Positions 3,001 to 19,799 are shown, numbered from the stretch's first letter. The stretch is DNA of 64,000 nucleotides from an uncultured Candidatus Saccharibacteria bacterium (GCA_964501135.1 CAZCRI010000001.1:64393-128392), one strand, 5' to 3'. A program made the numbers and translations. The notes: generated from the letters alone by a model not told the origin.

Positions 3001-4572
3001 AATACAGATCAAGACACGGATGCCTTGGTAGAGTTCCGTGAGAAGTATCTGCGAAACGGTGATGGTAGCGTCAATCGGAGCCAGTTAAATACAAACGGTT
3101 CATATATGGTTATCGGGGCAAATACGAATCCTGGTGAGTCTACGGATGTCCAGCAGCACACGGTAAATCTCTTTGGCCTAAGGCCAAATACCCCATACGA
3201 CTATCGGATAGTCTCGCACAACTATCTGGGCAATAATGTTGATACCACAGGTATAACAATGCCAGGGCTAGAAACTATAGGTTTTACAGTAACTCCTGGC
3301 AGTGTGGTGACAACGACAACTGGTGCAACTATTAACTGGACAACAAATCTGGATGCTGACTCTGCCTTTGTAGAGTATCAGATGAACCTCGAGGGGAATG
3401 ATGAACCGCAAGGTAAGACAGTTGGAGTGAATCCGAGTGAAATTGTTAGTAGCCCAAGAGAACACACCGTTGTTATCTCCGGCCTCAAGTCGAATCGCAG
3501 CTATAGCTATAAGATAAAGTCTATCTCTAAGGACGGCTTTGTGGCTGAAGCTGGCTCGACAACCTTTGAAACCAAGACATTTGACACAGCTGCCTTTACC
3601 TTGGCACCTTCATCGTCAAACGTGGATGAGCGAAATATCACAGCAACATCGGCACAAATAGTGTGGCAGACTGCAGTCCCAACGACAAACTGGGTACGCT
3701 ACGGTACCGAAAGTGGCAATTATGCTTACGCAGCTGGAGATAACGGGCTTTCTACTTCTCACGCAGTTAAGATAGATGGACTTATCCCCGGGACAAGCTA
3801 CTTTTATATTATTGACGTCAAGGATGCTAATGATACCCCTTACACTTCTCAGGAGTATACCTTCACAGCAGTCTTAAAGCCAAAGATTAGCAACTTTAAG
3901 GTGGAAGAAACAACCCCTTACGCCTTTACTATAACTTGGGATACCAACATTGATACCGAGACTATGATTAACCTCGGTAAAGATACCGCTTATGGCCAGA
4001 AACGAGGCACCTCGGGGTGGACGAAAGTGCACAAACTTGTCGTTGATGGGCTCGACGACAATACTGAATATCATTTCCAGATAATAGCGAAAGACGAGAC
4101 TGGCTACGAGGTTGCGGACGAAGATAAAATTGTGCGTACTCCGATGGATAGGATTGGGCCAAGGATAACAAGCGTCAAGGTCGATGTCTTGCCTATGGCC
4201 GAAAACGACGCCAATTCCTCGGTTATAATCTCTTGGCAGACTGATAAGCCAGCTACTACCTTGGTCGAATACGACCCCGGTATCATCGGCGGTACCTATA
4301 ATAGTCGTTCGGTAGAAGACAGCGCCTTGAGTGGCTCCCATACTGTTATTGTAAAGGGTCTTACTCCAGCGTCCTCTTACCACTATCGTTTGGTGTCTAG
4401 AGACAAACGGGGGAACGAAACAATCTCTCAGGATTATACTTTTGTGACGCCGAGTAAGGAGAAATCCATATTACAGCTCATTCTGAAGTCGCTTGAGGAA
4501 ACTTTTGCTTGGACCAAGAATCTAAACCAATTTTTCGCTAATATCGGTAAACGCCTGACTGGTAAGAGTTAA
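1..4572 (+). CDS. Giant secreted/surface protein with tandem fibronectin type III-like (PAP N-terminal-like) repeats; 5' end runs off the window
   Basis: The reading frame is open from base 1, with no in-frame stop upstream of the GTG at 49. The ORF is >1500 aa and rich in Thr, Ser, Asn and Tyr. Repeating ~100-aa modules carry W..T / SW.T and Y.YRIVS / YHYRLVS motifs typical of FN3 beta-sandwich repeats. There is no C-terminal anchor. Confidence 0.7.
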   Translation, partial: GTKTVRIKLFDKAGNSVTNITDTIFLDLTSPDSINPVAAYSDSGMVTPISETGYSNGWYNHANPYFKFIATDQISGIKEFQYCVYGEDGSCNYGLKAPLTASKITAEEDPDHSYIAGTSVAMSEYGEGIFTIKVVGYDFAGRASTEASYVYSYDTSLPGNVSSLEASPSVNLAVANNSIAIRWRKMNPQSDIAPVEKYRIERIEANSFVINQVDHTSVPAYNGDWSSTTGYGSITCLAAAPYSCIDKDGSNIGNATYDGTYFTYTEYANMPENSSNPYTDLSLDPSTRYVFRVMAKDYANSAGGGLTDEGFGSIPNSPDYAIYGYTKDNAAPELAPTNVTAAACDTGDATNCLDGDIATYRGHEVKVSWDKAQDNVSGIGFYYIYRHTGASTEMTGWSIVGKVAEGESYYNVYKAADDTVIANDYDDPASWVLVGDFDDPSNDVTNSRRIFWDTTVTDATRYSYRIVAYDQAEPGVPNHTAIAADIFYLDTTNAYPAVVPNTGILVPDVTAPILPSDFSARNGGIEYSKSGCLPYVDGTECQQASISWTQTNDNTVGTGITYKLFQSVADTSSFVELTDEEQHSTSYDPEDPSAPSQEELLVYNFKVSGLYDLTNYYFKIQVSDGFGNIVESGPVMMTTGNSAAPTAPANVNVNNNNSNVTDAAHQLYVLFSGSYAPKFNQATKANGIVRYDVYMTRTNKNPDVDGSITPADNSDDCTTDELTDDCWIRINNAGSPIRTESLATPIGDDLLNQYGFLATNLQEASEYYFRVRATDNTTPDALTGPLSDIPVISASTIHNSGWDITRDLTAPELPQNGLEVQVKDTYPNSTTMRNIVNWKILAEQPLRPKLGYEESTTDGGTCSLVVIDGTSYCNDFYAYEIYRQIKDANGNIIEASTTLVRTETDSEANYFIDEISNTELIDGMGEGALLTDQKITYYVQVVDASYVNFGYPGGTHINASENKSAKQYSGNTIIPSKATPSVEGAVTISNVGVASASISWNTDQDTDALVEFREKYLRNGDGSVNRSQLNTNGSYMVIGANTNPGESTDVQQHTVNLFGLRPNTPYDYRIVSHNYLGNNVDTTGITMPGLETIGFTVTPGSVVTTTTGATINWTTNLDADSAFVEYQMNLEGNDEPQGKTVGVNPSEIVSSPREHTVVISGLKSNRSYSYKIKSISKDGFVAEAGSTTFETKTFDTAAFTLAPSSSNVDERNITATSAQIVWQTAVPTTNWVRYGTESGNYAYAAGDNGLSTSHAVKIDGLIPGTSYFYIIDVKDANDTPYTSQEYTFTAVLKPKISNFKVEETTPYAFTITWDTNIDTETMINLGKDTAYGQKRGTSGWTKVHKLVVDGLDDNTEYHFQIIAKDETGYEVADEDKIVRTPMDRIGPRITSVKVDVLPMAENDANSSVIISWQTDKPATTLVEYDPGIIGGTYNSRSVEDSALSGSHTVIVKGLTPASSYHYRLVSRDKRGNETISQDYTFVTPSKEKSILQLILKSLEETFAWTKNLNQFFANIGKRLTGKS

Positions 4573-5056: not shown

Positions 5057-6136
5057 CTAAACGTTGAACTTAAATATCATTACATCGCCATCGGTAGCTA
5101 TGTATTCTTTGCCCTCGAGGCGTACTTTACCGGCGGCTTTGGCGCCAGTCCAGCCCTTGTTCGCTACTAGGTCTTTGTAATTTACGACTTCTGCCTTGAT
5201 AAAACCACGTTCAAAGTCACCATGAATGACACCTGCTGCCTGTGGTGCAGTGGAGCCTTTCTTGATGGTCCAAGCGCGCGTTTCCTTTTCACCCGCAGTG
5301 AAGTAGGTCTGAAGACCCAGGAGATCAAACCCCTTTTTTACCAAGGTATCTAATCCTGGTTCATCTTGGCCTAACTCTGCTAGGTATTCTTGTTTTTCTT
5401 CATCCGAAAGCTCATTGAGCTCAGATTCAATCTTGGCAGAAATAAAGACGACGCTTTTTTCATCCAATCCAGTCTGCTTGATAATTTCAGCGGTATTCGC
5501 AAGGTGTTTTTCGTCGCCGTTTAGAATGTAGAGATGAGGTTTGGCACTGAGTAAGTTTAGGTCCTTTATGGCCTCCTGCTCTTTCTCGGTAAGGGTAAGG
5601 TCACGAACTGGCGTACCAGCATCAAGTGCGGCAGCAACCTTCTTGACTGCGGCTGCCACATCGCTCATTTTGGGATTTGCACGGACCTCCTTCTCGAGTT
5701 TTTGCATTCGCTTGATTACTGTTTCAATGTCAGCGAGAATCAGCTCCATTTTGATGGTTTCAATATCGGAGACTGGATTAATTTCTCCTGCAACGTGAAG
5801 AACATTAGTATCTTCAAAAACCCTGACCACCTCGGCGACGGCGTCACACTCGCGAATGTTAGAGAGGAACTTGTTTCCTAGTCCCTCGCCCTCAGAGGCG
5901 CCCTTTACGATACCCGCTATGTCTATGAATTCTACGATAGCTGGAACAATTACCTTTGTCGGGATGGAGTCTGCAATTAATTTTAGGCGCGCATCTGGAA
6001 CTGGCACAATCCCCACATTGGGATCAATCGTACAGAAAGGATAATTCTGTGCCTCTACCTGGTTTTTTGTAATGGCATTGAAAAGCGTACTTTTGCCGAC
6101 ATTCGGTAGGCCGACGATTCCGATAGATAGTCCCAT
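5057..6136 (-). CDS. ychF: Ribosome-binding ATPase YchF (Obg-family GTPase)
   Basis: N-terminal G1 motif GxxxxGKST, a C-terminal TGS domain, and the conserved sequence [23 protein letters not shown]. Confidence 0.9.
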
Positions 6137-6268
6137 GTTACTCCTGTCATCCTGAGGAGCCAGGCTAGAGCCTGACGACGTGAGGATCTTCTAATAAACA
6201 AGCTGTATTTTAGCATCTAGATAAGGAAAATGGTAGAGTGGGGAGTATCATAGAGCTGTTCAATCTGA

Positions 6269-6278
6269 TGCGGCCGCA
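6269..6278. promoter_or_regulatory. Perfect 10-bp palindrome TGCGGCCGCA ~65 bp upstream of the promoter, a candidate operator
   Basis: The identical palindrome is present upstream of both paralogous promoters (here and at 9661-9670). Confidence 0.35.
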
Positions 6279-6339
6279 CAAGATTAGACTGTTTTGTTCG
6301 TAATGTTTGTAGATTATCTCCAATATTCAGCATAAGCTA

Positions 6340-6367
6340 TTGGCAAAGCACCCCCACAGTGTACAAT
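6340..6367 (+). promoter_or_regulatory. Sigma70-like promoter TTGGCA-16 nt-TACAAT
   Basis: -35 and -10 hexamers with a 16-nt spacer ~30 nt upstream of the ATG at 6398. The same architecture is duplicated at 9734-9761. Confidence 0.5.
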
Positions 6368-6397
6368 AATAGTAGATTAATATTTGGCGGGGGGTAT

Positions 6398-9307
6398 ATG
6401 GCTAATGAAAACGGACCTATAGGCGGTTTCGCCGCTTTTGGGGGTAAGTACTCGAAGATTGTAACAAGCGTTTTGGGGGTCATTGTATTCACCGCGATTT
6501 TTATTGGACTGTATCTTTATCTTTTCAGTCCAATAGCAACGGTTAACGGTGAGCAAATTACTAAAAATCAGTTTACCAAAGAAACTGAAAACTATAACAA
6601 AATGGCTGCATTTATGGGGAACAGCGATTATTCAAAGTTTTCCACTATACGCGATTCTTTAGTAGAGCGAAAGCTAATCGATATTGCAGCCAGTAAATAT
6701 GGAATAAGTGTTTCTGAGGAAGATATTGCTGAGGAAGTAAAAAGCCAGGAAGACTCTTTTAAGAATGATAAGGTTGATTATAAGGATGCTTACGCGACCG
6801 CATATGGCCTTGACGGCGATGAGCTTACGACCGTTCTCAAATATAAACTCTTAAAAGAGAGGCTGGTTGATAAAGTTATCAAGCGCAAAGAAGGCAGACT
6901 GATTTATGCGAGGTTTAATCCTAATAATGGCGTCGAACAACTGCTTGGTGTCAAGGCTGCAGACCTAGATTCGAACGCTAAATCAATCATCACTAAATGG
7001 AAAAGCGAGCTAGACACTGGTGTTAGTTTTGATGAACTGTATAATCAAATCCAAAAGGATAATAAATACCCGGCGTATTACGGTGATACTTTTACATATG
7101 ATATACAGAGAGACAAAGTACCAGGTGAAGATGAAGCAATACTGGCGACCTCAGTTGGAGAATATAGTGATATTGCCAAAACAAAGACTTACTATGCTAT
7201 TTATTTTATAGATCAGGGCAGCAATGGAGAATACGATAAGTGGGAAGATTTTATTAAAGATTACTCGGCCAAGTATGTCAAATATCCCCTTATAAGCTAC
7301 AAGAAGTCATCGGCAATAAAAGTAGGTATTAATGCCGTTAAAAGTGAGATGCAGATACTTGCTCATGAGTTATTTGGTCTAAATATTGCATTTGCTGGGT
7401 GTGATGATTGTGCTGGATGTACTGGTGCAAAGGTAAAGGGGACGGTAAAGGATACACTTGGCAATGCACTAAGTGGTGTTTCTATGAGCGGCACATCAAA
7501 TAGTAGTGATTTTTGTTCAGGATCCACTTCTAGCTCAAAGGTCGCTTATTGTGGGTATAGAACCGACTCGGATTCTACGAGCAGTACGGGCGGCTATAGC
7601 ATGGGTAATAATGATGGGAAAAGCTGCCGATTTAATTGTGCTGGGGGAACTGTTGCAGTAAAGGCTTCTGTTTCTAAATACACTGATGATACGAAAACTG
7701 TTACTGTAACGAACGGTAGTACGAAGGATGTCGATTTTGAGTTGACCCCTGCATCATACACCTTAACAGTCATAGTTAAGGGCACCGGTACTGGTCCAGT
7801 AAAGTCACCTAGTGGCGGTATAGTTTGCAAAAAGGGAGATTCTTCCACTTCTGATGGCTGTACTGCAAAATATACTTATAACATTGCATCGGACAATGTA
7901 TATACAACCCTTACGGCATATCCAGATTCTGGTTCGGTGTTTGTTAGTTGGAGTGGAGGTGGTTGTAGTGGTAATGGTACCTGTCAACCGAATGTAGATA
8001 ATAATGTTACGGTTACGGCTACGATTGACCTTGCATCTTACACTATCACTCCATATGCCGAAACAGGCTGCTCTTTCGTCTCGAATACAAATGCCGCAGA
8101 ATCTGTCAGCTACGGAGGTTCGTCGAGTTGGTACTGGGGCCAGTCTGATGCAGGTCATAAGTTTATGGGATTCTCGGTTGACGGTGGACCCATCGTCGCA
8201 GGAAATGTAGCAGGTCAGTCTACAGTCTACCAGTTTACGTCTGTGATTACTTCTCATACCCTTCTGATTAAATGCACACCAATCACCTACGGCGTCACCG
8301 TTTCGAAGGCTGGCACTGGTACTGGTAGTATCTCGTTGAGCACTGGAACTTTGATTTCGGGAAGCCTTACAGGCTCTACCTTCCCACGCTCTGGAGTAGT
8401 AGGACATGGAACTACCTTGGGGATTTCGGCAATTCCAAACGCCACGTCGAGGGCTAGCTGGTCGGGCAACTGTAGTGGTTCTTCGACGGTTGCCGGGGCT
8501 ACAGTGGTAACCTCGCTCGCAAATATTATAGCTAACAAGACGTGTGTAATTACATTTGATCTGGTTGGAACGGTGAGTCCTGTGGTAGAGCTGATTTCTC
8601 CAAGTCCAACCGAGAACCCAGTGGATACCAATGGCGCAGTAATCCTTGCTACAAACTACACGAAGCTTGAAGCTAGACTCAGGATTCCTGGATATGTGTC
8701 AGCTAGCGGAGGAACTGCGAAGCTTGGGATTACTTATGCCGAGAATAAAGTAGGTGGTATCGCCAAGACAGTACAGGGGAGCGTAACAGGTCTCTCTTCG
8801 GAAGGTGCGATTAGCTTGATAGTTGACGCCAGCGATTTAGTAGCTGGACAGGTATATATCTGGGACGCATTTGGTCAGGTTGTTGACGGAAGTCCTCAGG
8901 GTACCAACGGATTTAGCGTTTCGAAAGATGAAGTAGAGAGCGCAGAACAATGGAAATTCATCTATCGAGTAGGAGGCACCGAAGGTGGCGGTGGCGGGGA
9001 AGTCGAAAACTTCTCATGCAAGGTAGTTCCTAGCAGCGGTACCACAGGGCTACCAGTAGGAATCTCAATCAATGGAGCCCCGGTTGAAACTACCACATAC
9101 GTAGTGACTACTGGCGACGGTAATACATTCGATGTCTTAGGGAAAGACTTGCCGTACTACTACAGCTATGACACAGTCGGATCATACACTGTTGGGGTGG
9201 CTCTCAAGACTGGGACTGCCTCTGGCTTGCCTTGTTCCACGACCATTCAGGTTAACGCGGGCACCGATGGGGGTGGCGGCAGCGAAGTATTAACGAACCA
9301 GAATTGA
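6398..9307 (+). CDS. Fused surface protein: N-terminal signal anchor plus SurA_N/PrsA-like chaperone module (degenerate parvulin), then a Cys-containing divergent InlB B-repeat region and a shared C-terminal module
   Basis: The start is the ATG at 6398, after a G-rich RBS. The N-terminal TM segment and the ATVNGEQITKNQF motif are typical of SurA/PrsA/PpiD N-domains. Later YTLTVIVKGTGTGPV...C repeats have the pattern W.G.C.G. The last ~310 aa are identical to the C-terminus of the 10780-12897 protein. Confidence 0.7.
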   Translation: MANENGPIGGFAAFGGKYSKIVTSVLGVIVFTAIFIGLYLYLFSPIATVNGEQITKNQFTKETENYNKMAAFMGNSDYSKFSTIRDSLVERKLIDIAASKYGISVSEEDIAEEVKSQEDSFKNDKVDYKDAYATAYGLDGDELTTVLKYKLLKERLVDKVIKRKEGRLIYARFNPNNGVEQLLGVKAADLDSNAKSIITKWKSELDTGVSFDELYNQIQKDNKYPAYYGDTFTYDIQRDKVPGEDEAILATSVGEYSDIAKTKTYYAIYFIDQGSNGEYDKWEDFIKDYSAKYVKYPLISYKKSSAIKVGINAVKSEMQILAHELFGLNIAFAGCDDCAGCTGAKVKGTVKDTLGNALSGVSMSGTSNSSDFCSGSTSSSKVAYCGYRTDSDSTSSTGGYSMGNNDGKSCRFNCAGGTVAVKASVSKYTDDTKTVTVTNGSTKDVDFELTPASYTLTVIVKGTGTGPVKSPSGGIVCKKGDSSTSDGCTAKYTYNIASDNVYTTLTAYPDSGSVFVSWSGGGCSGNGTCQPNVDNNVTVTATIDLASYTITPYAETGCSFVSNTNAAESVSYGGSSSWYWGQSDAGHKFMGFSVDGGPIVAGNVAGQSTVYQFTSVITSHTLLIKCTPITYGVTVSKAGTGTGSISLSTGTLISGSLTGSTFPRSGVVGHGTTLGISAIPNATSRASWSGNCSGSSTVAGATVVTSLANIIANKTCVITFDLVGTVSPVVELISPSPTENPVDTNGAVILATNYTKLEARLRIPGYVSASGGTAKLGITYAENKVGGIAKTVQGSVTGLSSEGAISLIVDASDLVAGQVYIWDAFGQVVDGSPQGTNGFSVSKDEVESAEQWKFIYRVGGTEGGGGGEVENFSCKVVPSSGTTGLPVGISINGAPVETTTYVVTTGDGNTFDVLGKDLPYYYSYDTVGSYTVGVALKTGTASGLPCSTTIQVNAGTDGGGGSEVLTNQN

Positions 9308-9587
9308 TTATTCCAAAGGAGATAGTAGGCATGAAGAATATATCGTTAAAATGGGTAATTATTGGGAGCTTGGTACTTTTGGTTATTGCCGCCGCTGGGG
9401 TAGCGACCTATGTTTGGACAAATGGCGAGCTGAAAGCGAAAAATACAACCACCACGACCACCAAGGCAACCACGAAGAAACTGAAAACAAATACTTCAAA
9501 GGTGGAGTCAACGAATACAGTAACAGTACCAGCAACTGCAGTGGATGCCAGTGGTGACGTCGACCTTTCAAAACTAAGGTAGGCAGC
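8381..9587 (+). repeat. 1.2-kb direct repeat, copy 1, 100% identical to 11971-13177
   Basis: Direct sequence comparison shows identity starting at TTCCCACGCTCTGGAGTAGTAGG and ending at AAACTAAGGTAGGCAGC. The flanks diverge to ~75% identity on the 5' side and are unrelated on the 3' side. Confidence 0.85.
9331..9582 (+). CDS. Small single-pass membrane protein with a Thr/Lys-rich tail (copy 1)
   Basis: AAGGAG RBS 8 nt upstream of the ATG at 9331. Hydrophobic helix IIGSLVLLVIAAAGVATYVW. Identical to 12921-13172. Confidence 0.45.
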   Translation: MKNISLKWVIIGSLVLLVIAAAGVATYVWTNGELKAKNTTTTTTKATTKKLKTNTSKVESTNTVTVPATAVDASGDVDLSKLR

Positions 9588-9651
9588 TTGTGGTCAAGTG
9601 TCTTAATGTAGATGCAGTATTTGTCTATAGATTTAAGGTTTTGGATTACGC

Positions 9652-9679
9652 CTAATCCTATGCGGCCGCACAGGATTAG
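9652..9679. promoter_or_regulatory. Hairpin/palindrome CTAATCCT-aTGCGGCCGCAc-AGGATTAG upstream of the promoter
   Basis: The TGCGGCCGCA palindrome is nested in an 8-bp inverted repeat. Copy A has a shorter flanking inverted repeat (AATCT/AGATT). Confidence 0.35.
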
Positions 9680-9733
9680 ACTGTTTTATTCGTAAGGTTA
9701 GTAGATTATCCCCAATATTCAGCTAAAAAGCTA

Positions 9734-9761
9734 TTGTCAAAGCATCTTGTCAGTGTACAAT
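9734..9761 (+). promoter_or_regulatory. Sigma70-like promoter TTGTCA-16 nt-TACAAT
   Basis: Paralogous to 6340-6367. Confidence 0.5.
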
Positions 9762-9790
9762 ATTAGTAGATTAATATTGGCGGGGGGTAT

Positions 9791-10780
9791 ATGGCTAATG
9801 AAAACGAACCAATAGGCGGTTTCGCCGCTTTTTGGAGTAAGTACTCGAAAAAAATTGAAGTAAGCGTAATGGTGTTACTGGGAGTTGTATTACTAGCGGT
9901 TGGCGGTTACTGGTTGTATCAGACACAAGTAGGTCCCGTGAAGAGAGATTACATTGCGACCTTTGATGGCAAAAAAATTACCGACAAGGATCTGAACAAG
10001 TTTATTTACAGTATTACCATGGGTGGGACTCCAGAGAGCCCCGATCTTGCAGACTATAAAGACGTGCCTAAGAGCCAGTTTCTCGACATGTACCTAGAGA
10101 GTTTGGTTCTTGAGCAGGAGAGCAAGAAACTGGGGGTTACAGTAGCGGATAGTGAGCTAGACGCTATGGTTAGCGAGAAATTCCCTTGGATGGAAAAGTC
10201 CAACATTCTCTTGCCAGACGTAAAAAATTATCAGTTGTATCTCGCTCGTAAAGACAAGTTGATGTCCAAAGTGCTAGGCGATAAGTCTGGGTACTGGATT
10301 ATGGCAAGAAACGACCTATATTTGCCAGATACAGGCAAAGAGATTACCCCAGAGAATAAGCAGAAAACAGACGAGCTGAAGACCTATACGGAGAGCTTTA
10401 TAAAAGATGTTTATGCCAAGCTAAGAGCTCGTACTCTCACTATTCAACAAGCAGTGGAGCTGGAAGTGGCTGACGCCAAGATTGGAAAGAACGCTCCCTC
10501 CGAAAACTCCGGTTTGCATAGCTTGTATTTCGATAGCGAAATGTTCAAGGAAAGAGCTGGACTGCTGAGTGACGCCAAGATTTTAGGTTCTATATCTGCG
10601 CTCAAGGCAGGCGAGTACACTGAGCCAGTGCACCTAGTGAATGAAGAGGGCACCGATATTGGTTGGTATATCATCTATATTGAAAAGTCAGACGCTAATC
10701 CTACGGGACAATCTTACGACGAGTGGCTCACAACAAAAAACACGGCTTATGGCGTGAAGACCTATTTGGAGGCAAAATAA
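9791..10780 (+). CDS. SurA_N/PrsA-like chaperone with degenerate parvulin-like C-terminus and an N-terminal signal anchor
   Basis: MANENEPIGGFAAF... N-terminus paralogous to 6398-9307 residues 1-~300. TM segment. The stop TAA overlaps the next ATG (TAATG). Confidence 0.65.
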   Translation: MANENEPIGGFAAFWSKYSKKIEVSVMVLLGVVLLAVGGYWLYQTQVGPVKRDYIATFDGKKITDKDLNKFIYSITMGGTPESPDLADYKDVPKSQFLDMYLESLVLEQESKKLGVTVADSELDAMVSEKFPWMEKSNILLPDVKNYQLYLARKDKLMSKVLGDKSGYWIMARNDLYLPDTGKEITPENKQKTDELKTYTESFIKDVYAKLRARTLTIQQAVELEVADAKIGKNAPSENSGLHSLYFDSEMFKERAGLLSDAKILGSISALKAGEYTEPVHLVNEEGTDIGWYIIYIEKSDANPTGQSYDEWLTTKNTAYGVKTYLEAK

Positions 10781-12897
10781 TGAAGAGTAAATTGTTATCT
10801 AAGGCTTCAATTATAGCGGCGACACTAGTTGTGGCTGCATTTTCGGTGGCAGTTGCATATGCCGCTTGCCCCTCTAGCGCTTCTCAGTCGGACGGAATTA
10901 ATACTCACTCCTCATCATCCCTCGCCGGGCTAATTGTTCAGATAAAGCACAATGATGTTTGGTACAACGACAGCATCACAGTCGCTCAAAAAGCCGGCTA
11001 TAGCGGAGAGTACATCGACTTAGTGAATTCCAGCGGCCAGGTGACCGGAACTACTACCTCAAAGACTTGGGACGCGGGCAGTACCTTCTATATCGCTGGC
11101 CAGAGCACGGCTTGTAAGCTAGATGGAGTTATCTGGATGGGCTATGGATTCTCGAACGCATATGGCAATAAATACGGCCTTGACTGCAAGAGTAGTAGCG
11201 GAACTCACCCAGAATTTAACATCAAAGACAATATTACCACTAGCAGTACTGGATGGTGGAAGTATTATGTCGACTCCAGCGGTGCAGATTTCGTGGAGGC
11301 TTTTAGAGCGTATACCTCAAGACCAAGTGATTCGCTTCTAGACGGTGCCGATAACGATAATCCAGTGGTTCGGTTTACGGTCGTTAACGGTTACACAGCA
11401 CGGGTAGTGCTCAACTATCAGCCTGTTCCTAAGTATACTTTATCTTACAACGCCAACGGTGGGACAGGGGCTCCAGCCAGTCAGAGCGTATTTTCAGGTT
11501 CGTCGACACCAGTGTCTGAGTCTGAGCCTAGCTATACAGGGCATACTTTTACTGGGTGGAAGGATAGCGCGGGTGTTAGTTATGCAAAAAAACAAAGTGT
11601 AACCCTAACTGCTAACAAGACTCTCTATGCCCAGTGGTCAACAGACACCTTCCCCATTACTCCAAGTGTTACGACCGGATGTAACATCAACCCTAACACA
11701 GTCCAGAACGTTAGTTACGGGACAAATTCAGTTGCCTTTACGGGCTCTGCCAACTCTGGTTACAGGTTCGATGGATTATCTGTCGACGGGATTACGACCG
11801 TCTTGGCGACCTCTCCATACATCTTTACAACTGTAACTGCACCTCATACTATAAGGGCCATGTGCACGCCATTAACCTACACTGTAACAATCTCCAAGGC
11901 GGGTACCGGTACTGGTAGCATTTCTCTTACCAGCGGTGCCTTGGTTTCTGGTAGTCTCACTGGGGCAACCTTCCCACGCTCTGGAGTAGTAGGACATGGA
12001 ACTACCTTGGGGATTTCGGCAATTCCAAACGCCACGTCGAGGGCTAGCTGGTCGGGCAACTGTAGTGGTTCTTCGACGGTTGCCGGGGCTACAGTGGTAA
12101 CCTCGCTCGCAAATATTATAGCTAACAAGACGTGTGTAATTACATTTGATCTGGTTGGAACGGTGAGTCCTGTGGTAGAGCTGATTTCTCCAAGTCCAAC
12201 CGAGAACCCAGTGGATACCAATGGCGCAGTAATCCTTGCTACAAACTACACGAAGCTTGAAGCTAGACTCAGGATTCCTGGATATGTGTCAGCTAGCGGA
12301 GGAACTGCGAAGCTTGGGATTACTTATGCCGAGAATAAAGTAGGTGGTATCGCCAAGACAGTACAGGGGAGCGTAACAGGTCTCTCTTCGGAAGGTGCGA
12401 TTAGCTTGATAGTTGACGCCAGCGATTTAGTAGCTGGACAGGTATATATCTGGGACGCATTTGGTCAGGTTGTTGACGGAAGTCCTCAGGGTACCAACGG
12501 ATTTAGCGTTTCGAAAGATGAAGTAGAGAGCGCAGAACAATGGAAATTCATCTATCGAGTAGGAGGCACCGAAGGTGGCGGTGGCGGGGAAGTCGAAAAC
12601 TTCTCATGCAAGGTAGTTCCTAGCAGCGGTACCACAGGGCTACCAGTAGGAATCTCAATCAATGGAGCCCCGGTTGAAACTACCACATACGTAGTGACTA
12701 CTGGCGACGGTAATACATTCGATGTCTTAGGGAAAGACTTGCCGTACTACTACAGCTATGACACAGTCGGATCATACACTGTTGGGGTGGCTCTCAAGAC
12801 TGGGACTGCCTCTGGCTTGCCTTGTTCCACGACCATTCAGGTTAACGCGGGCACCGATGGGGGTGGCGGCAGCGAAGTATTAACGAACCAGAATTGA
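10780..12897 (+). CDS. Secreted surface protein with a signal peptide, a Flg_new (Listeria-Bacteroides) repeat, divergent InlB B-repeats and the shared C-terminal module
   Basis: GGAGG RBS. Signal peptide MKSKLLSKASIIAATLVVAAFSVAVAYA. YTLSYNANGG...YTGHTFTGWKD...TLYAQW matches the Flg_new pattern. YTVTISKAGTGTGSIS...WSGNCSG matches the InlB B-repeat pattern. The C-terminal ~310 aa are identical to 6398-9307. Confidence 0.7.
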   Translation: MKSKLLSKASIIAATLVVAAFSVAVAYAACPSSASQSDGINTHSSSSLAGLIVQIKHNDVWYNDSITVAQKAGYSGEYIDLVNSSGQVTGTTTSKTWDAGSTFYIAGQSTACKLDGVIWMGYGFSNAYGNKYGLDCKSSSGTHPEFNIKDNITTSSTGWWKYYVDSSGADFVEAFRAYTSRPSDSLLDGADNDNPVVRFTVVNGYTARVVLNYQPVPKYTLSYNANGGTGAPASQSVFSGSSTPVSESEPSYTGHTFTGWKDSAGVSYAKKQSVTLTANKTLYAQWSTDTFPITPSVTTGCNINPNTVQNVSYGTNSVAFTGSANSGYRFDGLSVDGITTVLATSPYIFTTVTAPHTIRAMCTPLTYTVTISKAGTGTGSISLTSGALVSGSLTGATFPRSGVVGHGTTLGISAIPNATSRASWSGNCSGSSTVAGATVVTSLANIIANKTCVITFDLVGTVSPVVELISPSPTENPVDTNGAVILATNYTKLEARLRIPGYVSASGGTAKLGITYAENKVGGIAKTVQGSVTGLSSEGAISLIVDASDLVAGQVYIWDAFGQVVDGSPQGTNGFSVSKDEVESAEQWKFIYRVGGTEGGGGGEVENFSCKVVPSSGTTGLPVGISINGAPVETTTYVVTTGDGNTFDVLGKDLPYYYSYDTVGSYTVGVALKTGTASGLPCSTTIQVNAGTDGGGGSEVLTNQN

Positions 12898-13177
12898 TTA
12901 TTCCAAAGGAGATAGTAGGCATGAAGAATATATCGTTAAAATGGGTAATTATTGGGAGCTTGGTACTTTTGGTTATTGCCGCCGCTGGGGTAGCGACCTA
13001 TGTTTGGACAAATGGCGAGCTGAAAGCGAAAAATACAACCACCACGACCACCAAGGCAACCACGAAGAAACTGAAAACAAATACTTCAAAGGTGGAGTCA
13101 ACGAATACAGTAACAGTACCAGCAACTGCAGTGGATGCCAGTGGTGACGTCGACCTTTCAAAACTAAGGTAGGCAGC
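11971..13177 (+). repeat. 1.2-kb direct repeat, copy 2
   Basis: 100% identical to 8381-9587. Confidence 0.85.
12921..13172 (+). CDS. Small single-pass membrane protein with a Thr/Lys-rich tail (copy 2)
   Basis: Identical to 9331-9582. Confidence 0.45.
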   Translation: MKNISLKWVIIGSLVLLVIAAAGVATYVWTNGELKAKNTTTTTTKATTKKLKTNTSKVESTNTVTVPATAVDASGDVDLSKLR

Positions 13178-13239
13178 CCGGTAACAGTTAACAAGACCCG
13201 GTATTTGTAATAAAATAGATTGAGGAAGAGGAATAGAAC

Positions 13240-14271
13240 TTGGGATTATTTGGAGGCGAAACAGATTTTATAGGAGTTGACATTGGGAGCACGGCTGTGC
13301 GCCTGGTTCAGCTTAGAAAGACCATGGGTAAATACAACCTAGTGGCTTTTGGTAGTGCTCAGTTGCCACCAAGCATCTCTCAGAGTGATTCCAAGCTGGA
13401 TATGCAGGCTCTGGCTCAGGTAATTAAGAAGTTGGTAAAGACCTCAAAGATATCGACCAAGAATGTAGTTGCTTCGCTTTCTGGCTCATCCATTTTTACT
13501 ACCGTAGTGAAGTTGCCACCAATGGAAAAGAGCGAGATTGCCAAGGCGATAAAATATCAGGCGGAGCAAAATATTCCTCTGAAGGCGGAAGATGCGCAGT
13601 ATGACTGGCAAGTGGTGCGAGAGAATCCTACCACCAAAGAGGTAGCCGTGATGATTGTAGCTGCCCCGAAGGTGAAAACTGACCGTACGATAGAACTCTT
13701 TGAGATGGCAGATATGGATGTGATTTACCTGGAGACCAACGGAATTGCTGTGGCGCGTTCCCTAATCTCTGGCTCCGAACCACTAGTAATGGTAGTTGAC
13801 ATGGGGGCCACCACTACCGAACTTACTATTGTAGAGAACGGCGTTGTTTCTCATGTTCGTACCGTAAACTCAGCTGGGTATGCCCTGACTCGCGTGATTG
13901 CCCAAAACTTAGGTCTAGACAACACTCAGTCCGAGCAATTCAAGCGCAAATTTGGTCTTTCTCAGGATAAACTCGAGGGTCAGGTGTTCCGTACAATGCA
14001 ACCAATTCTTTCTACAATTACCGAAGAGATTGAGCGCTCGGTAAAGTTTTACGCTGAACAGTATGGCAGTAGTGTTACCAAGATTATACTGACCGGTGGC
14101 ACAGCCCGTATGCCTGAACTGGGCAACTATATCAAGGCCACCCTAGGGCTAGAGGTTTCTTATGGTAACCCCTGGGTAAATGTTATTGCAAATGCCGATG
14201 TAACAGAAAAGCTAAACCAGAATGCACCAGAGTTTGCGGTTGCTGTTGGCTTGGCAATGAGGGAGAACTAG
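13240..14271 (+). CDS. pilM: Type IV pilus assembly protein PilM (actin-like ATPase fold)
   Basis: 343 aa. IGVDIGSTAVRLVQL is an actin-like phosphate-1 motif. First gene of the pilMNO block. Confidence 0.85.
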   Translation: MGLFGGETDFIGVDIGSTAVRLVQLRKTMGKYNLVAFGSAQLPPSISQSDSKLDMQALAQVIKKLVKTSKISTKNVVASLSGSSIFTTVVKLPPMEKSEIAKAIKYQAEQNIPLKAEDAQYDWQVVRENPTTKEVAVMIVAAPKVKTDRTIELFEMADMDVIYLETNGIAVARSLISGSEPLVMVVDMGATTTELTIVENGVVSHVRTVNSAGYALTRVIAQNLGLDNTQSEQFKRKFGLSQDKLEGQVFRTMQPILSTITEEIERSVKFYAEQYGSSVTKIILTGGTARMPELGNYIKATLGLEVSYGNPWVNVIANADVTEKLNQNAPEFAVAVGLAMREN

Positions 14272-14829
14272 ATGAGTAAGATTAACCTGATCCCAGAGGT
14301 TCGCCAAAAGAAGATTAAGATTGCGCAGACCAATAAGATGGTTACTTCGGCCGCGATTGTGCTCGGTATTGCAACTGTTGCGGCGGTGATGTCTCTGGCC
14401 GCATATGCTGCAGTACTGACAACCCAAAAAAGCCTGATTGAAAAGGATATTACTAAAGTCCAGGATAGCCTTGATACCATGAAGGACCTTGAAACTACAG
14501 TTTCGAATCTCGAGAACGGTCTATCAAACATAAAAGGGATTATTAATGGCGGCAAGGATTGGAACAACCTGCTGGGACATTTTGAAAAATTCACACCTTC
14601 CGATATTCAGATCACAAACTTCGCGGTTGATGGCGGTCGGGTTTCGTTATCTCTAAAAGGTAAAGAAGTTAAATCGATCGATCGCTTTATTACTTCTTTT
14701 TCTAACGCTAAGGATCCAGACAATCAAAATTACTTTACCGACGTAGTGGTCAGCGGCTACAGCAAGGACGAGACTATCGGAGTAACATTTTCAGCGAAAT
14801 TTAATTTGAACGAGGCGGTGGTATGGTAA
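14272..14829 (+). CDS. pilN: Type IV pilus assembly protein PilN
   Basis: Starts MSKINLIPEV..., has a single N-terminal TM helix, and follows pilM. Confidence 0.7.
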   Translation: MSKINLIPEVRQKKIKIAQTNKMVTSAAIVLGIATVAAVMSLAAYAAVLTTQKSLIEKDITKVQDSLDTMKDLETTVSNLENGLSNIKGIINGGKDWNNLLGHFEKFTPSDIQITNFAVDGGRVSLSLKGKEVKSIDRFITSFSNAKDPDNQNYFTDVVVSGYSKDETIGVTFSAKFNLNEAVVW

Positions 14830-15380
14830 AAGATCAAGTAATTAAGTACAACTACGCCGTTATAGTTGCTTCAGGTGCCGCCGTAGCATTACTACTAGCT
14901 GGTATTTTTATCGTAAAGCCACTTCTTGAGACGGTTGGTAAAATGGACAAGGAAAAGCAGGCAAAGTCGGCGACACTAGCTGAAATGAAGAAACGAGAGA
15001 GTGTTCTCTTGGGGCTCAAGGATCAGGAAGACCAGCTGACAAAAGATTCCGAAACTATTACGAATGCTTTGCCTACTCAGGCAGACATTGGGAGGCTATT
15101 TATTCAGCTCGATACTCTCGCCAAAGATAGTGGGGGCACCCTAAAGTCGGTATCTCAAACCAATACACAGGCGCCGGCAAAAAGCACCTTTAGTGGTGTT
15201 GCCGAGAATACATATTCTATTCCAGTGGAAATGCCGACTTACTTTGCGCTTAAGCAGTTTATAGCTAACTCCAAAGATGCTCTGAGGTTACTTTCTATCG
15301 AAAATTTGAAGATTAGCTCTACTGAGGCCGGGCAACTTTCGGTAAGTATTACCGCTAAATCTTATGCGAGGACAAAGTGA
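14823..15380 (+). CDS. pilO: Type IV pilus assembly protein PilO-like
   Basis: N-terminal TM, a coiled-coil region and a C-terminal globular region. Synteny between pilN and pilB. Confidence 0.6.
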   Translation: MVKDQVIKYNYAVIVASGAAVALLLAGIFIVKPLLETVGKMDKEKQAKSATLAEMKKRESVLLGLKDQEDQLTKDSETITNALPTQADIGRLFIQLDTLAKDSGGTLKSVSQTNTQAPAKSTFSGVAENTYSIPVEMPTYFALKQFIANSKDALRLLSIENLKISSTEAGQLSVSITAKSYARTK

Positions 15381-15640
15381 TGACGAAAAAAGAGATAGGT
15401 CTAGCCGCAGTTTCTGGCGTGGTGCTAATAGCAGCCGTTTACTTTATGTATACTATGCTCTTTCCTAAAGCAACGTCTGTAAAGAGCACTAAAAAAACTA
15501 CAGGTACACAGAGTGAAACAAACACGATTACCGGGAACTTCGATGAAGAGACGCTAAGTAAAATTAAGAAATACAAGGACTACGGGGAGGCATCGCTTGA
15601 CAATATAGGTCGAGTAAATCCATTTGGTCCCCTGAACTAG
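15377..15640 (+). CDS. Small membrane-anchored protein (PilP-like position); hypothetical
   Basis: 87 aa with an N-terminal TM. The gene is translationally coupled within the pilus operon. Confidence 0.35.
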   Translation: MMTKKEIGLAAVSGVVLIAAVYFMYTMLFPKATSVKSTKKTTGTQSETNTITGNFDEETLSKIKKYKDYGEASLDNIGRVNPFGPLN

Positions 15641-15642
15641 AA

Positions 15643-17412: not shown

Positions 17413-17475
17413 GACCTATTTCCTAGATAGTAATCATATATTCTGTTATGATAATAGCAGAATGCAGGAGGGAAG

Positions 17476-18540
17476 ATGCCGGAACTAAAAATTGAAACTC
17501 TACTAGAAGAAGTAGTAAAAAAGAATGCCTCGGACTTACACCTGACAGTTGGTGCTAGTCCAATATTGCGTATTGATGGTGCTATTTCCCCAATGACTCA
17601 GTTTCCGGCCCTTGACGAGAAAGACATTGAACAGCTGATTTTTTCGGTAGTTGACGATATACAGAAAGATATTCTTCTGAAAGACAAGGAAGTGGACTTC
17701 TCTTTTGCCTTTGGTGACATTGCTCGTTTTCGTGCAAATGCTTACCACCAGAAAGGTAACGTTGGGTTAGCGCTCCGCTTAATTCCAGCAAAGATCAAAA
17801 GTACCGAAGAGTTGGGGCTTCCTCAGATTATAAATAATTTTACAGATATTCCACGAGGATTGGTCCTAGTCACCGGTCCTACCGGCTCTGGTAAATCTAC
17901 CACCCTGGCCGCAATGATTGACCGAATCAATATAGGCAAAGGGATGCACATCATCACAATCGAAGACCCAATCGAGTACACTCATAGTCATAAGAAATCT
18001 ATTATTGAGCAACGTGAAGTTCATTATGATACTAGATCGTTCTCGGCAGCGCTTCGTAGTGCTCTTCGCGAAGATCCAGACGTTGTTCTTATCGGAGAGA
18101 TGCGTGACCTGGAGACTATTTCGGCGGCGATTACTATCGCTGAAACGGGACACTTGGTCCTAGCTACTCTACACACAAATAATGCAGCACAGTCTATTGA
18201 TCGTATGATTGATGTCTTTCCTCCTTACCAACAGCAGCAAGTCCGTGTACAGCTCTCCAATATTCTGCAGGGTGTGGTTTCTCAACGTCTAGTACCAACG
18301 ATTGGTGGCGGACGCCAAGCTGTGGCGGAAATTATGGTAAGTACGCCTGCCGTGCGTAATATCATTCGTGAAGGTAAGACACATCAGCTTGATGCGGTAA
18401 TCCAGACAAGCGCAGATCAGGGTATGATCTCTATGGATAAGGCTCTGGTTTCTGCGGTTAAGTCAGGTACTATTACCTCGGAGGAGGCGCGCGGTTATTG
18501 TATCGACCCTTCTGAGTTTGAGCGATTGATGCACGGTTAA
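17476..18540 (+). CDS. pilT: Twitching motility (retraction) ATPase PilT
   Basis: Walker A motif GPTGSGKSTT, the ~350-aa length typical of PilT, and the AIRNLIREGK motif. Confidence 0.9.
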   Translation: MPELKIETLLEEVVKKNASDLHLTVGASPILRIDGAISPMTQFPALDEKDIEQLIFSVVDDIQKDILLKDKEVDFSFAFGDIARFRANAYHQKGNVGLALRLIPAKIKSTEELGLPQIINNFTDIPRGLVLVTGPTGSGKSTTLAAMIDRINIGKGMHIITIEDPIEYTHSHKKSIIEQREVHYDTRSFSAALRSALREDPDVVLIGEMRDLETISAAITIAETGHLVLATLHTNNAAQSIDRMIDVFPPYQQQQVRVQLSNILQGVVSQRLVPTIGGGRQAVAEIMVSTPAVRNIIREGKTHQLDAVIQTSADQGMISMDKALVSAVKSGTITSEEARGYCIDPSEFERLMHG

Positions 18541-18551
18541 GTGAGTGAAAA

Positions 18552-19745: not shown

Positions 19746-19799
19746 CTTGACACTCGGGTAGTTAGTTTTATACTTATAAGTAATAACAACGGAGGGAAA

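What the first reader, a model, noticed from the sequence alone, without database searches (positions are those of the whole stretch)
6250..13200. Two paralogous surface-protein loci, one fused and one split, sharing a perfectly identical 1.2-kb 3' module and a downstream small ORF
Locus A (6255-9587) and locus B (9647-13177) begin with a diverged ~200-bp duplicated block, identical at about 85-90% of nucleotides by eye. The block contains the palindrome TGCGGCCGCA, a TTGNCA-16-TACAAT promoter, a G-rich RBS and the shared N-terminus MANEN(G/E)PIGGFAAF.

In B the SurA/PrsA-like chaperone module (329 aa) and the adhesin-like module are separate genes joined by a TAATG overlap. The adhesin-like module has a signal peptide, a Flg_new repeat, InlB B-repeats and a novel ~300-aa Gly-rich C-domain. 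In A the two modules are one 982-aa ORF. The junction retains a hydrophobic segment, ...SAIKVGINAVKSEMQILAHELFGLNIAFAGC, that aligns with B's signal peptide ...ASIIAATLVVAAFSVAVAYAAC. That alignment is a fingerprint of gene fusion by stop-codon loss, or of a recent pseudogenising read-through.

The last 1206 bp of both loci (8381-9587 and 11971-13177) are 100% identical, and include an 83-aa TM protein gene. Upstream of the identical stretch, identity drops abruptly to ~75%. That pattern implies recent gene conversion or recombination homogenising the 3' module. It may be a cassette-like mechanism for varying surface adhesins. It could instead be an assembly collapse of a repeat.
Basis: seen in the sequence. 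Interest (0 to 1): 0.6.

Follow-up and report, generated by a model that had tools for sequence, protein, structure and literature searches.

The report
Tandem surface-protein genes sharing identical tail
Two neighbouring surface-protein gene units, next to the pilus operon of a Saccharibacteria-like bacterium, carry an exactly identical 1.2-kb 3' end that was recently copied from one to the other; the "fused" and "split" layouts are both old and conserved, so no recent fusion or gene decay is involved.

Summary
Window 8378-9587 and 11968-13177 are a perfect 1210-bp direct repeat. It covers the last 309 codons of two surface-protein genes and an 83-aa membrane-protein gene. A 197-bp promoter/5' block (6262-6456, 9654-9849) is 88.8% identical. 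Immediately left of the perfect tract, synonymous sites are saturated, so one recent non-reciprocal copying event (gene conversion or 3'-end replacement) between old paralogues fits best. Two contigs from a separate assembly start 30 nt inside the repeat and run into the two different right flanks, which argues against a false tandem join.

The fusion interpretation fails. The fused layout of locus A, junction included, recurs in proteins 42-51% identical from other genomes. The split layout of locus B, with the same GGAGGCAA-ATAATG overlap, recurs in a third genome at 55-61% identity. All sit between ychF and pilM. Fused forms outnumber split forms, so an old fission in the B lineage is more parsimonious.

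The N-terminal module is PrsA/SurA-like by sequence profile and predicted fold. Most of the shared tail has no detectable homologue. Its last ~95 residues are a family-specific domain followed by a G-G-E-V-type C-terminal motif. No further copies and no silent cassettes were found in the window. This is an ordinary evolutionary process acting on an uncharacterised protein family.

The parts
5057..6136 (-). ychF GTPase gene. It marks the conserved left border of the site.
   Evidence: Pfam YchF-GTPase_C and MMR_HSR1. It has the same position and orientation in L003, L005 and L008.
6262..6456 (+). 5' block of locus A. It holds the palindrome AATCTGATGCGGCCGCACAAGATT (6262-6285), the promoter-like TTGGCA-16-TACAAT (6340-6367), the G-rich RBS, and the first 20 codons.
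   Evidence: 88.8% identical to 9654-9849. Promoter scan. pS is 0.16 in the first 20 codons. The core promoter and 5'UTR are also conserved upstream of the L005 668-aa gene.
6398..9307 (+). Gene A, 969 aa. Order of parts: N-terminal TM helix, PrsA/SurA-like module, low-confidence linker (residues 298-335), Cys-rich transthyretin/CarboxypepD_reg-like domain, Flg_new_2-like repeats, an orphan stretch, and the family tail domain followed by GGGGSEVLTNQN.
   Evidence: (identical NCBI-sourced protein P0001).
8378..9587 (+). Copy 1 of the perfect 1210-bp repeat. It spans the last 309 codons of A, a 23-nt spacer, the 83-aa ORF, and 5 further nt.
9331..9582 (+). Small ORF, copy 1 (83 aa). It has an N-terminal hydrophobic helix and a Thr/Lys-rich tail.
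   Evidence: AGGAG RBS seen in the sequence. KD 2.75. No Pfam family above its cut-off. No homologue in L003, L005 or L008. The same protein lies on a separate NCBI contig, L011.
9654..9849 (+). 5' block of locus B. It holds the palindrome AATCCTATGCGGCCGCACAGGATT (9654-9677), TTGTCA-16-TACAAT (9734-9761), the RBS, and the first 20 codons.
9791..10780 (+). Gene B1, 329 aa. It is a TM-anchored PrsA/SurA-like protein that stands alone.
   Evidence: Pfam SurA_N_2 and SurA_N_3. 61% identical to the 325-aa gene of L008. Only 27-29% identical to A's N-terminal module over ~200 residues that include the near-identical first ~20. An exact copy lies on Logan contig L001.
10780..12897 (+). Gene B2, 705 aa. 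Order of parts: signal peptide, a head domain orthologous to P0005, a Flg_new repeat, an A-type Flg_new_2-like domain, and the shared tail. Its start overlaps the B1 stop (TAATG).
11968..13177 (+). Copy 2 of the perfect 1210-bp repeat.
12921..13172 (+). Small ORF, copy 2 (83 aa).
13240..14271 (+). pilM, the first gene of the type IV pilus operon (pilMNO, pilB, pilT, pilC, pilin and further genes). It marks the conserved right border of the site.
   Evidence: Pfam PilM_2 at 6e-51. T2SSE and N_methyl downstream. Synteny in three other genomes. Promoter-like TTAACA-17-TAAAAT at 13188-13216.

Best explanation
The region holds two real, tandem, anciently diverged members of one protein family. The family occupies a fixed site between ychF and the pilM-led type IV pilus operon in Saccharibacteria-like genomes.

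Each unit has its own sigma-70-like promoter. Each encodes a membrane-anchored PrsA/SurA-like foldase module and a beta-rich extracellular passenger. The passenger ends in a family-specific tail domain followed by a G-G-E-[VI]-type C-terminal motif. In A-type units, module and passenger are one polypeptide. It would have an N-terminal signal-anchor with the rest outside the cell. In B-type units they are two translationally coupled genes, and the passenger has its own cleavable signal peptide. Both layouts are old.

B2 is a chimera of a B-type head and an A-type tail. The perfect 1210-bp identity comes from one recent non-reciprocal homologous recombination event, either gene conversion or duplicative 3'-end replacement. 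That event overwrote the C-terminal 309 codons of one paralogue, together with the downstream small gene, using the other paralogue's sequence. Its left end lies in frame inside a conserved repeat domain. Its right end lies where homology stops. The 89%-identical 5' block reflects an older exchange, selection on a shared regulatory element, or both.

Shown: the repeat, its boundaries, the age contrast, conservation of both architectures, the synteny, and the foldase-like fold.

Inferred: the recombination mechanism and its direction (unresolved), the surface or adhesin role, the foldase-client relationship, and any link to the pilus.
For: - A perfect 1210-bp tract lies next to sequence with saturated synonymous divergence. 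pS is 0.80 in the adjacent 35 codons, 0.84 in the preceding domain and 0.81 in the foldase modules.
- The two right-hand junctions are recovered separately in an independent k-mer assembly of run ERR3839025. L001 equals window 9558-11328 and L002 starts at 13148. Both begin exactly 30 nt inside the repeat.
- The A-type fusion and its junction are conserved in P0002 and P0003.
- The B-type split and its overlap junction are conserved in L008-L010.
- The family sits at the ychF-pilM site in L005-L007 and L008-L010. It sits directly upstream of pilM in the P0002 genome and next to ychF in L003.
- No internal DNA repeats occur in the L003, L005 or L008 loci, so the homogenisation is specific to this lineage.
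- B2's Flg_new_2-like domain is A-type: 62.5% identical to P0002, and absent from the B-type orthologue P0005.
- A sister-strain contig, L011, is 99.5% identical across the small ORF and pilM. It drops to about 60% from position 12858 leftwards, which shows allelic replacement at this tail between strains.
- The foldase module matches SurA (6.7e-8), PrsA (2.4e-6) and the PrsA parvulin domain (5.6e-5) by sequence profile. The predicted structure matches LIC12922 (PDB 3nrk, also the top hit of the sequence-profile search), PrsA, PEB4 and SurA.
- Saccharibacteria are naturally competent and recombine with ~1-kb homology arms (PMC10633639).
Against: - No homology exists to the right of the tract. 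A simple two-sided conversion between pre-existing homologues is therefore not enough, and the right junction needs an illegitimate or duplication-type join.
- Nucleotide identity left of the tract is only ~68%, and the longest identical run is 11 nt. That is poor substrate for RecA-type initiation.
- Donor and recipient cannot be assigned.
- Perfect identity of the two copies could be overstated if a short-read assembler merged near-identical copies.
- Logan run ERR3839025 may be the same read set as the source assembly. In that case it is independent in method only.
- Function is not supported by any experiment.
- The shared tail has no detectable homologue outside this genome, and its single-sequence structure prediction failed.
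Confidence: 0.7

Rival explanations
1. Whole-unit tandem duplication followed by head replacement. One unit (promoter, head, tail, small ORF) duplicated recently. The head of one copy was then replaced by a divergent allele, for example taken up by natural transformation.
For: The layout is P-head-tail-s / P-head-tail-s with sharp outer ends. A's first 1.64 kb has unusually low GC3 (0.31-0.36) against 0.46-0.50 in neighbouring genes, which hints at a different history. Saccharibacteria are competent for transformation. Between-strain allelic replacement is seen at this locus.
Against: The two promoter blocks differ by 11% throughout while the tails differ by 0%. One recent duplication therefore cannot explain both. 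An incoming head would need homology left of the promoter block, and none exists. Both head types are vertically conserved at this site in related genomes, at divergences similar to other envelope genes. Other low-GC stretches occur in the window.
Confidence: 0.15
2. Assembly artefact. Either the two tails are near-identical but not identical and were flattened to one consensus, or the tandem arrangement is a chimera of two strains carrying alternative alleles at one site.
For: A 1.2-kb exact repeat cannot be spanned by short reads. The source appears to be a metagenome-derived assembly, because the related sequences come from metagenome samples and MAG records. Strain variation exists at this locus. 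The Logan contig of the repeat itself could not be retrieved.
Against: Logan contigs L001 and L002 show k-mer paths from the repeat end into both different right flanks. One of these is the spacer that leads into locus B's promoter. A two-allele bubble would not create a small-ORF-to-spacer-to-promoter-B junction. The promoter blocks are distinct, at 89% identity. Tandem pairs of this family are normal in relatives.
Confidence: 0.1
3. Programmed cassette-type surface variation. The conserved 5' block and 3' tail would serve as recombination anchors for regularly swapping variable heads.
For: The pattern is conserved ends around variable middles. The tail allele is replaced between strains with a breakpoint in the DNA that encodes the conserved C-terminal motif. 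Surface proteins of an epibiont are plausible targets of diversifying selection.
Against: There are only two copies, and both have promoter-like sites, an RBS and intact ORFs. No silent or truncated copies occur in 64 kb. No homogenisation is seen in three related loci. No site-specific recombinase or recombination-initiating element was found next to the two loci. The part that is identical is the part that would have to vary.
Confidence: 0.05
4. Locus A is a recent fusion by stop-codon loss, or a decaying read-through, of an originally split gene pair.
For: The A junction aligns positionally with B2's signal peptide, and both end in A-x-A-x-C.
Against: The fused junction is conserved in orthologues at 42-51% identity, and other fused paralogues exist. 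The junction is not hydrophobic in any fused member. A and B foldase modules are only 27-29% identical, with saturated dS.
Confidence: 0.02

Closest known systems
Helicobacter pylori babA/babB/babC outer-membrane adhesin paralogues (recalled from general knowledge, not tested here)
   Same: These are paralogous surface-protein genes with near-identical end segments and divergent middles. Non-reciprocal recombination between loci produces chimeric genes and homogenises the ends.
   Different: The Bab loci are dispersed rather than tandem. They have no foldase module and no co-converted downstream gene. Their exchange has been shown experimentally and is frequent, whereas here a single event is inferred from sequence.
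Neisseria pilE/pilS, Borrelia vlsE and Mycoplasma MgPa-type antigenic-variation cassettes (general knowledge)
   Same: Recombination between repeated segments of surface-protein genes, with conserved flanks around variable parts.
   Different: Those systems have one expression site and many promoterless silent cassettes, and the exchanged segment is the variable one. Here there are two complete expressed-looking units, no silent copies in the window, and the exchanged segment is identical.
PrsA / SurA / PpiD / PEB4 extracytoplasmic foldases
   Same: A SurA_N-type domain scores above the Pfam cut-off. Sequence profile and predicted fold match SurA, PrsA and PEB4. The N-terminal TM anchor resembles that of PpiD.
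   Different: No Pfam rotamase hit appears. Bona fide PPIases found by the profile search do carry PF00639. In most family members the module is covalently fused to a large beta-rich passenger. I found no description of this in the few papers searched.
Listeria InlB-type / Flg_new (List_Bact_rpt) repeat surface proteins
   Same: B2 has one Flg_new repeat above the cut-off (44.1 bits). A and B2 have weak Flg_new_2 matches.
   Different: There are no LRR domains and no GW or LPXTG anchor. The Flg_new_2 hits fall below Pfam's cut-off. The tail domain and C-terminal motif are specific to this family.

Membership tests
Intragenomic gene conversion / concerted evolution of tandem paralogues | An identical tract embedded in anciently diverged homologous sequence | tested here: met
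   There are 0 differences in 1210 bp. pS is 0.80 in the 35 codons immediately to the left and 0.84 in the next domain.
Intragenomic gene conversion / concerted evolution of tandem paralogues | Both tract ends lie within pre-existing homology | tested here: inconclusive
   The left end lies in frame inside a homologous repeat domain. The right end coincides with the end of all detectable similarity, where the local alignment scores no better than shuffles.
Intragenomic gene conversion / concerted evolution of tandem paralogues | Both copies physically exist with distinct flanks | tested here: met
   Logan contigs L001 and L002 run from 30 nt inside the repeat into the two different right flanks. 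The left flanks and read depth were not testable.
Programmed antigenic-variation cassette system | One expression site plus promoterless or truncated silent donor copies | tested here: not met
   Both units have promoter-like sites matching 10 of 12 positions, an RBS and complete ORFs. There is no third copy of either block in 64 kb. The rest of the genome was not available.
PrsA/SurA/PpiD-type foldase | SurA_N-type chaperone domain | tested here: met
   In A, PF13624 scores 49.3 bits (cut-off 27.2) and PF13623 scores 41.3 bits (cut-off 28.5). In B1, PF13623 scores 31.5 and PF13624 scores 30.5. PDB profile hits are SurA at 6.7e-8 and PrsA at 2.4e-6. Foldseek hits include PrsA, PEB4 and SurA.
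PrsA/SurA/PpiD-type foldase | Parvulin PPIase domain with catalytic residues | tested here: inconclusive
   The profile matches isolated PrsA and PpiC parvulin domains (1zk6 at 5.6e-5, 2m08 at 8.7e-4). No Pfam rotamase hit appears at E<=0.01. Catalytic residues were not examined.
PrsA/SurA/PpiD-type foldase | Membrane tether (TM helix as in PpiD, or lipid anchor as in PrsA) | tested here: met
   Every member examined (A, B1, P0002, P0003 and the L005 668-aa protein) has a single N-terminal hydrophobic helix, with KD 15-residue means of 2.4-3.2. This rests on a hydropathy calculation only, without a dedicated predictor.
Flg_new / InlB B-repeat surface proteins | Repeat domain above Pfam's gathering score | tested here: met
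   Met for B2 only: PF09479 scores 44.1-45.9 bits against a cut-off of 27. PF18998 scores 16.4-21.9 bits in A and B2, below its cut-off of 23.6.
Bacterial lipoprotein | Lipobox [LVI][ASTVI][GAS]C at the end of the signal peptide | tested here: inconclusive
   B2 has VAYAAC and P0005 has VVRAAC. A Cys is present, but position -3 is Tyr or Arg. The motif also reads as an AxA signal-peptidase-I site. No predictor was available.

The most novel reading that the evidence does not exclude
The family itself may be new biology. It would be a dedicated extracytoplasmic foldase coupled to its own surface client, usually covalently and sometimes through translational coupling. It is positioned at the type IV pilus operon of Saccharibacteria and ends in a conserved G-G-E-[VI]-x-P C-terminal tag that could act as a sorting or processing signal. 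Rapid tail turnover, both between strains and between paralogues, would then tune epibiont-host recognition.
Probability: 0.2. Interest if true: 0.6.

Novelty: new member of a known kind. Interest (0 to 1): 0.33.

Why it matters
The process itself is textbook: recent homogenisation of the 3' ends of two tandem surface-protein paralogues.

The value of the follow-up lies in three points:
- It removes a tempting but wrong story (recent fusion or pseudogene), using cross-genome evidence.
- It defines a conserved, uncharacterised family of PrsA/SurA-like foldase-passenger proteins at the ychF-pilM site next to the twitching-type pilus operon of Saccharibacteria. These are organisms whose host attachment depends on pili and on poorly known adhesins (PMC11623550, PMC10633639).
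- It shows that the tails of these proteins turn over quickly between strains yet are identical within this genome. That marks them as candidates for host-interaction determinants, and orthologues could be tested in the genetically tractable Saccharibacteria strains.

Tried and rejected
- Single-sequence AlphaFold of the shared tail gave pLDDT 32 and was unusable.
- A full HMMER scan of 1.84 billion representatives with the tail found only the two window proteins. Pfam at E<=1 found nothing.
- Exact look-ups of protein A, of P0001 and of the 92-aa TTG version of the small ORF were not on record. The Logan contig of the repeat itself could therefore not be checked.
- A metagenome scan for a 24-mer at the tail end returned no hits.
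- The genome-contig scan returned only two distant loci and not the source genome.
It was rerun as A4.
- I first read L003 as a 'fused plus split' pair. I withdrew this because the second gene is interrupted by a run of N and continues in another frame.
- An apparent by-eye similarity between 6196-6261 and 9588-9653 was rejected by a shuffle test.
- The palindrome as a terminator hairpin got weak or no support. It is not the minimum-energy fold in copy A, the z-score is -2.1 in copy B, and the terminator scan does not call it.
- Base composition as a clue to donor direction gave a low GC3 for A's head only. This is suggestive but not decisive, because other low-GC stretches exist in the window.
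- The profile search with A3 returned only B-type relatives and distant true PPIases. It could not give the fused-versus-split census.
- The literature searches found no description of this family. The searches were few and the library is incomplete.

Full report
**1. What is in the sequence**

The main features:
- The two copies are in register at an offset of 3590 nt. The perfect block is 8378-9587 = 11968-13177, 1210 bp.
- blastn extends the similarity to 8273-9587 vs 11863-13177 (1315 bp). All 34 mismatches lie in the first 105 bp.
- A second, shorter duplicated block, 6262-6456 vs 9654-9849, is 88.8% identical over 197 bp.
- Neither block has a third copy in the 64-kb window.
- Beyond the outer ends of both blocks, local alignments score no better than shuffled sequence.

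The 5' block contains:
- the palindrome ATGCGGCCGCAC, found twice in the window against 0.16 expected;
- a TTGGCA/TTGTCA-16-TACAAT promoter-like site matching 10 of 12 positions;
- a G-rich RBS;
- the first 20 codons.

The genes:

| Gene | Coordinates | Length | Note |
|---|---|---|---|
| A | 6398-9307 | 969 aa | The 982-aa GTG ORF starts just upstream of, and overlaps, the -10 box. The identical NCBI-sourced protein in the collection is 969 aa. |
| B1 | 9791-10780 | 329 aa | |
| B2 | 10780-12897 | 705 aa | Overlaps B1 by TAATG, with GGAGG upstream. |
| small ORF | 9331-9582 and 12921-13172 | 83 aa | Two identical copies. |

**2. Is the tandem repeat real?**

Exact-protein look-ups found two short contigs from a Logan assembly of run ERR3839025. 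L001 equals window 9558-11328 at 100% identity. L002 starts at 13148 and carries pilM.

Both contigs begin exactly 30 nt inside the right end of the repeat. A k=31 graph would break there if the repeat end branches into two different continuations. One continuation is the 66-nt spacer leading into locus B's promoter, and the other is the pilM promoter. This supports a true tandem arrangement.

A mixture of two alternative alleles at one site would not produce a path from the small ORF through the spacer into promoter B.

Three things remain untested:
- the left junctions;
- read depth;
- whether the two copies are exactly identical in the reads.

I also do not know whether this run is the source of the assembly.

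**3. Age structure**

| Segment | pS | dN |
|---|---|---|
| 35 codons just left of the perfect tract | 0.80 (saturated) | 0.15 |
| Preceding Flg_new_2-like domain | 0.84 | 0.52 |
| Foldase modules, after codon 20 | 0.81 | 0.85 |
| First 20 codons | 0.16 | 0.07 |

The picture is two very old paralogues, one very recent copy event over the tail and small ORF, and a 5' block of intermediate divergence. The left boundary is in frame, and the differences next to it are mostly third-position changes.

**4. Fused versus split**

A homology search with protein A found three proteins: the identical NCBI-sourced P0001, P0002 (1111 aa, 51% identity) and P0003 (869 aa, 42%). P0002 and P0003 both carry SurA_N and Flg_new_2 in a single chain.

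The three-way alignment shows that the junction itself is conserved...YVKY...FG..A.A[SG]C..C.GC.G..., followed by a Cys-rich domain.

Genomic context of the relatives:

| Genome / locus | Arrangement |
|---|---|
| P0003 genome (L005-L007) | ychF(-), P0003, a 668-aa fused SurA_N protein, pilM |
| P0002 genome | a 1239-aa SurA_N + Flg_new protein, P0002, a 136-aa ORF, pilM |
| L003 (a Candidatus Saccharibacteria MAG) | ychF(-), a 709-aa fused member, then a second member broken only by a run of N |
| L008-L010 | ychF(-), a 325-aa SurA_N gene, P0005, pilM |

The search with B1 joined to the first ~400 residues of B2 found P0005 (481 aa). It is 55-56% identical to the first ~310 residues of B2.

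In L008-L010 the 325-aa gene is 61% identical to B1. The overlap junction is the same: ACCAGGAGGCAAGATAATG there, TTGGAGGCAAAATAATG here.

The window genome is about equally distant from the L005 and L008 genomes. YchF is ~76% identical, PilM 66%, PilB ~70% and PilT ~82%.

Both architectures are therefore old and under selection.

Hydropathy agrees with this:
- Fused proteins have one N-terminal TM helix.
- Their junction is not membrane-like (0.8-1.36).
- B2 and P0005 have real signal-peptide cores (2.6).

At least four fused lineages exist against one split lineage, so fission in the B lineage is the more parsimonious reading. This is an inference, because no rooted tree was made.

**5. What the proteins are**

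A profile of eight N-terminal modules hits several solved structures:
- SurA (1m5y) at 6.7e-8;
- PrsA (6vj4) at 2.4e-6;
- the isolated PrsA parvulin domain (1zk6) at 5.6e-5.

An AlphaFold model of A residues 1-460 was built on a four-sequence alignment.
- Overall pLDDT is 70.
- The foldase-like core scores 75-94.
- The junction, residues 298-335, scores below 50.

By Foldseek the model matches LIC12922 (PDB 3nrk, also the top hit of the sequence-profile search), PrsA, PEB4 and SurA over the N-terminal part. The domain after the junction matches transthyretin-like carboxypeptidase-regulatory domains. That agrees with a weak Pfam CarboxypepD_reg hit.

The shared tail is 309 aa and 14.9% Gly.
- It has no homologue at E<=1e-3 among 1.84 billion representatives other than the two window proteins.
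- It has no Pfam match.
- Its last ~95 residues match an HMM built from the tails of six relatives, at 35 bits.

All family members end in P..G[SG]GGE[VI].P(N). In the window proteins the ending is GGGGSEVLTNQN. No other ORF of 80 aa or more in the window or in loci L003, L005 and L008 has this ending.

B2 is a mosaic. Its head and Flg_new repeat are B-type. Its next domain is A-type: 62.5% identical to P0002, against 48.6% for A's own copy, and absent from P0005.

**6. Mechanism**

One recent non-reciprocal copy of the tail and the small ORF between the two units explains the data. A clean two-sided conversion is not sufficient, because homology ends at the right boundary. A duplicative or illegitimate right join is needed. 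The direction is unresolved.

Clues to direction, none of them decisive:
- Neither L005 nor L008 has a small ORF before pilM.
- The P0002 genome has a 136-aa ORF after its A-type gene.
- A's head has low GC3.

No related locus shows internal DNA repeats, so this is a lineage-specific event rather than a standing property of the family.

A 691-bp contig from another NCBI assembly (L011) is 99.5% identical over the small ORF and pilM. It becomes about 60% identical from position 12858 leftwards. The tail allele is therefore also replaced between strains, and the breakpoint lies in the DNA encoding the conserved C-terminal motif.

Saccharibacteria are naturally competent and recombine with ~1-kb homology arms (PMC10633639), so such exchanges are mechanistically plausible.

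The 1210-bp direct repeats should also allow loop-out deletion of 8378-11967. That would remove B1 and the B2 head. This is a prediction and has not been observed.

**7. The 5' block**

The core promoter, 5'UTR and RBS (CAGTGTACAAT..TAGATTAATATT..GGGGGG..ATGGCTAA) recur almost unchanged upstream of the 668-aa gene in L005. That protein is only ~27% identical to A. Part of the 89% identity within the window is therefore regulatory constraint.

The upstream palindrome region and the near-identical first 20 codons are specific to the window. They point to an older exchange.

The palindrome keeps its symmetry through paired changes between the two copies. It folds only weakly as RNA and is not called as a terminator. 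A dimeric DNA-binding site is the likelier reading, but this is untested.

**8. Comparison with known systems, and verdict**

The process is ordinary concerted evolution of paralogous surface-protein genes. It resembles the H. pylori bab paralogues, as recalled from general knowledge. It fails the defining test of cassette-type antigenic variation, because there are no silent copies and both units look expressed.

The protein family resembles a PrsA/SurA-type foldase. It meets the SurA_N and membrane-tether criteria. The parvulin criterion is inconclusive.

The downstream operon matches the T4P-1 gene set described for Nanosynbacter lyticus TM7x (PMC11623550). The genes upstream of pilM are not discussed there.

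Overall:
- The recombination reading is supported.
- The fusion reading is refuted.
- The cassette reading is unsupported.
- Interest is modest, and rests mainly on the uncharacterised foldase-passenger family and its fast-changing tail.

Noticed in passing
window 9260-9304 and 12850-12894; L003 11900-11977 and 14400-14474; L005 12540-12610 and 14660-14735; L008 11380-11446: Every member of the family ends with a Cys-bracketed ~95-aa tail domain followed by P..G[SG]GGE[VI].P(N)-COOH. No hydrophobic segment follows it. No other ORF of 80 aa or more in the window or in these three loci has this ending. It could be a sorting or processing tag.
   Followed up: partly
window 6262-6285 and 9654-9677: The 24-nt palindrome AATCTGATGCGGCCGCACAAGATT / AATCCTATGCGGCCGCACAGGATT keeps its symmetry through paired changes (T-A to C-G). 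It contains the only two GCGGCCGC-core matches in the window and lies ~55 nt upstream of the -35 box. It may be a site for a dimeric regulator. Support for an RNA hairpin is weak.
   Followed up: partly
L005 12690-12740 vs window 6355-6405 and 9749-9798: The core promoter, short 5'UTR and G-rich RBS are almost identical in a genome whose PilM is only 66% identical. They lie upstream of a family member that is only ~27% identical in protein sequence.
   Followed up: partly
window 6398-8038: The first 1.64 kb of gene A has GC3 of 0.31-0.36. The shared tail, small ORF, B1, B2, pilM and ychF have 0.46-0.50. This may reflect a different history for A's head, although other low-GC stretches exist in the window.
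   Followed up: partly
L011 1-60 vs window 12809-12868: A contig from another NCBI assembly (GCA_013572825.1) is 99.5% identical over the small ORF and pilM. It is only ~60% identical in the last codons of the upstream surface protein. This is a sharp inter-strain recombination breakpoint.
   Followed up: partly
window 13240-24530: A complete type IV pilus operon follows: pilM, pilN, pilO, pilB (T2SSE + MshEN), pilT, pilC, a pilin with an N_methyl motif, a prepilin-peptidase-sized ORF, several small ORFs, and a 502-aa ORF with no Pfam hit. In L008 the gene at the corresponding position carries Flg_new_2 + DUF5648.
   Followed up: partly
window 49-4572: A 1507-aa ORF carries fn3 and multiple Pur_ac_phosph_N domains. 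L005-L007 have a ~2500-aa RCC1/WD40 + Pur_ac_phosph_N protein at the equivalent upstream position. It looks like another large, variable surface protein.
   Followed up: no
L004 5484-6827: A distant homologue (25% identity, covering the foldase module and the Cys-rich domain) lies on a 7.6-kb contig binned as Prolixibacteraceae. This could be a mis-binned Patescibacteria contig or a wider distribution of the fusion.
   Followed up: no
L001 end = window 11328: The Logan contig stops inside the B2 head at 11328, which is not a repeat boundary. This could be a coverage drop or strain variation in the head. The cause is unexplained.
   Followed up: no
L003 13200-13300: The second family member in this Saccharibacteria MAG is interrupted by a run of N and continues in another frame. 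An automatic annotation would wrongly show it as split.
   Followed up: yes
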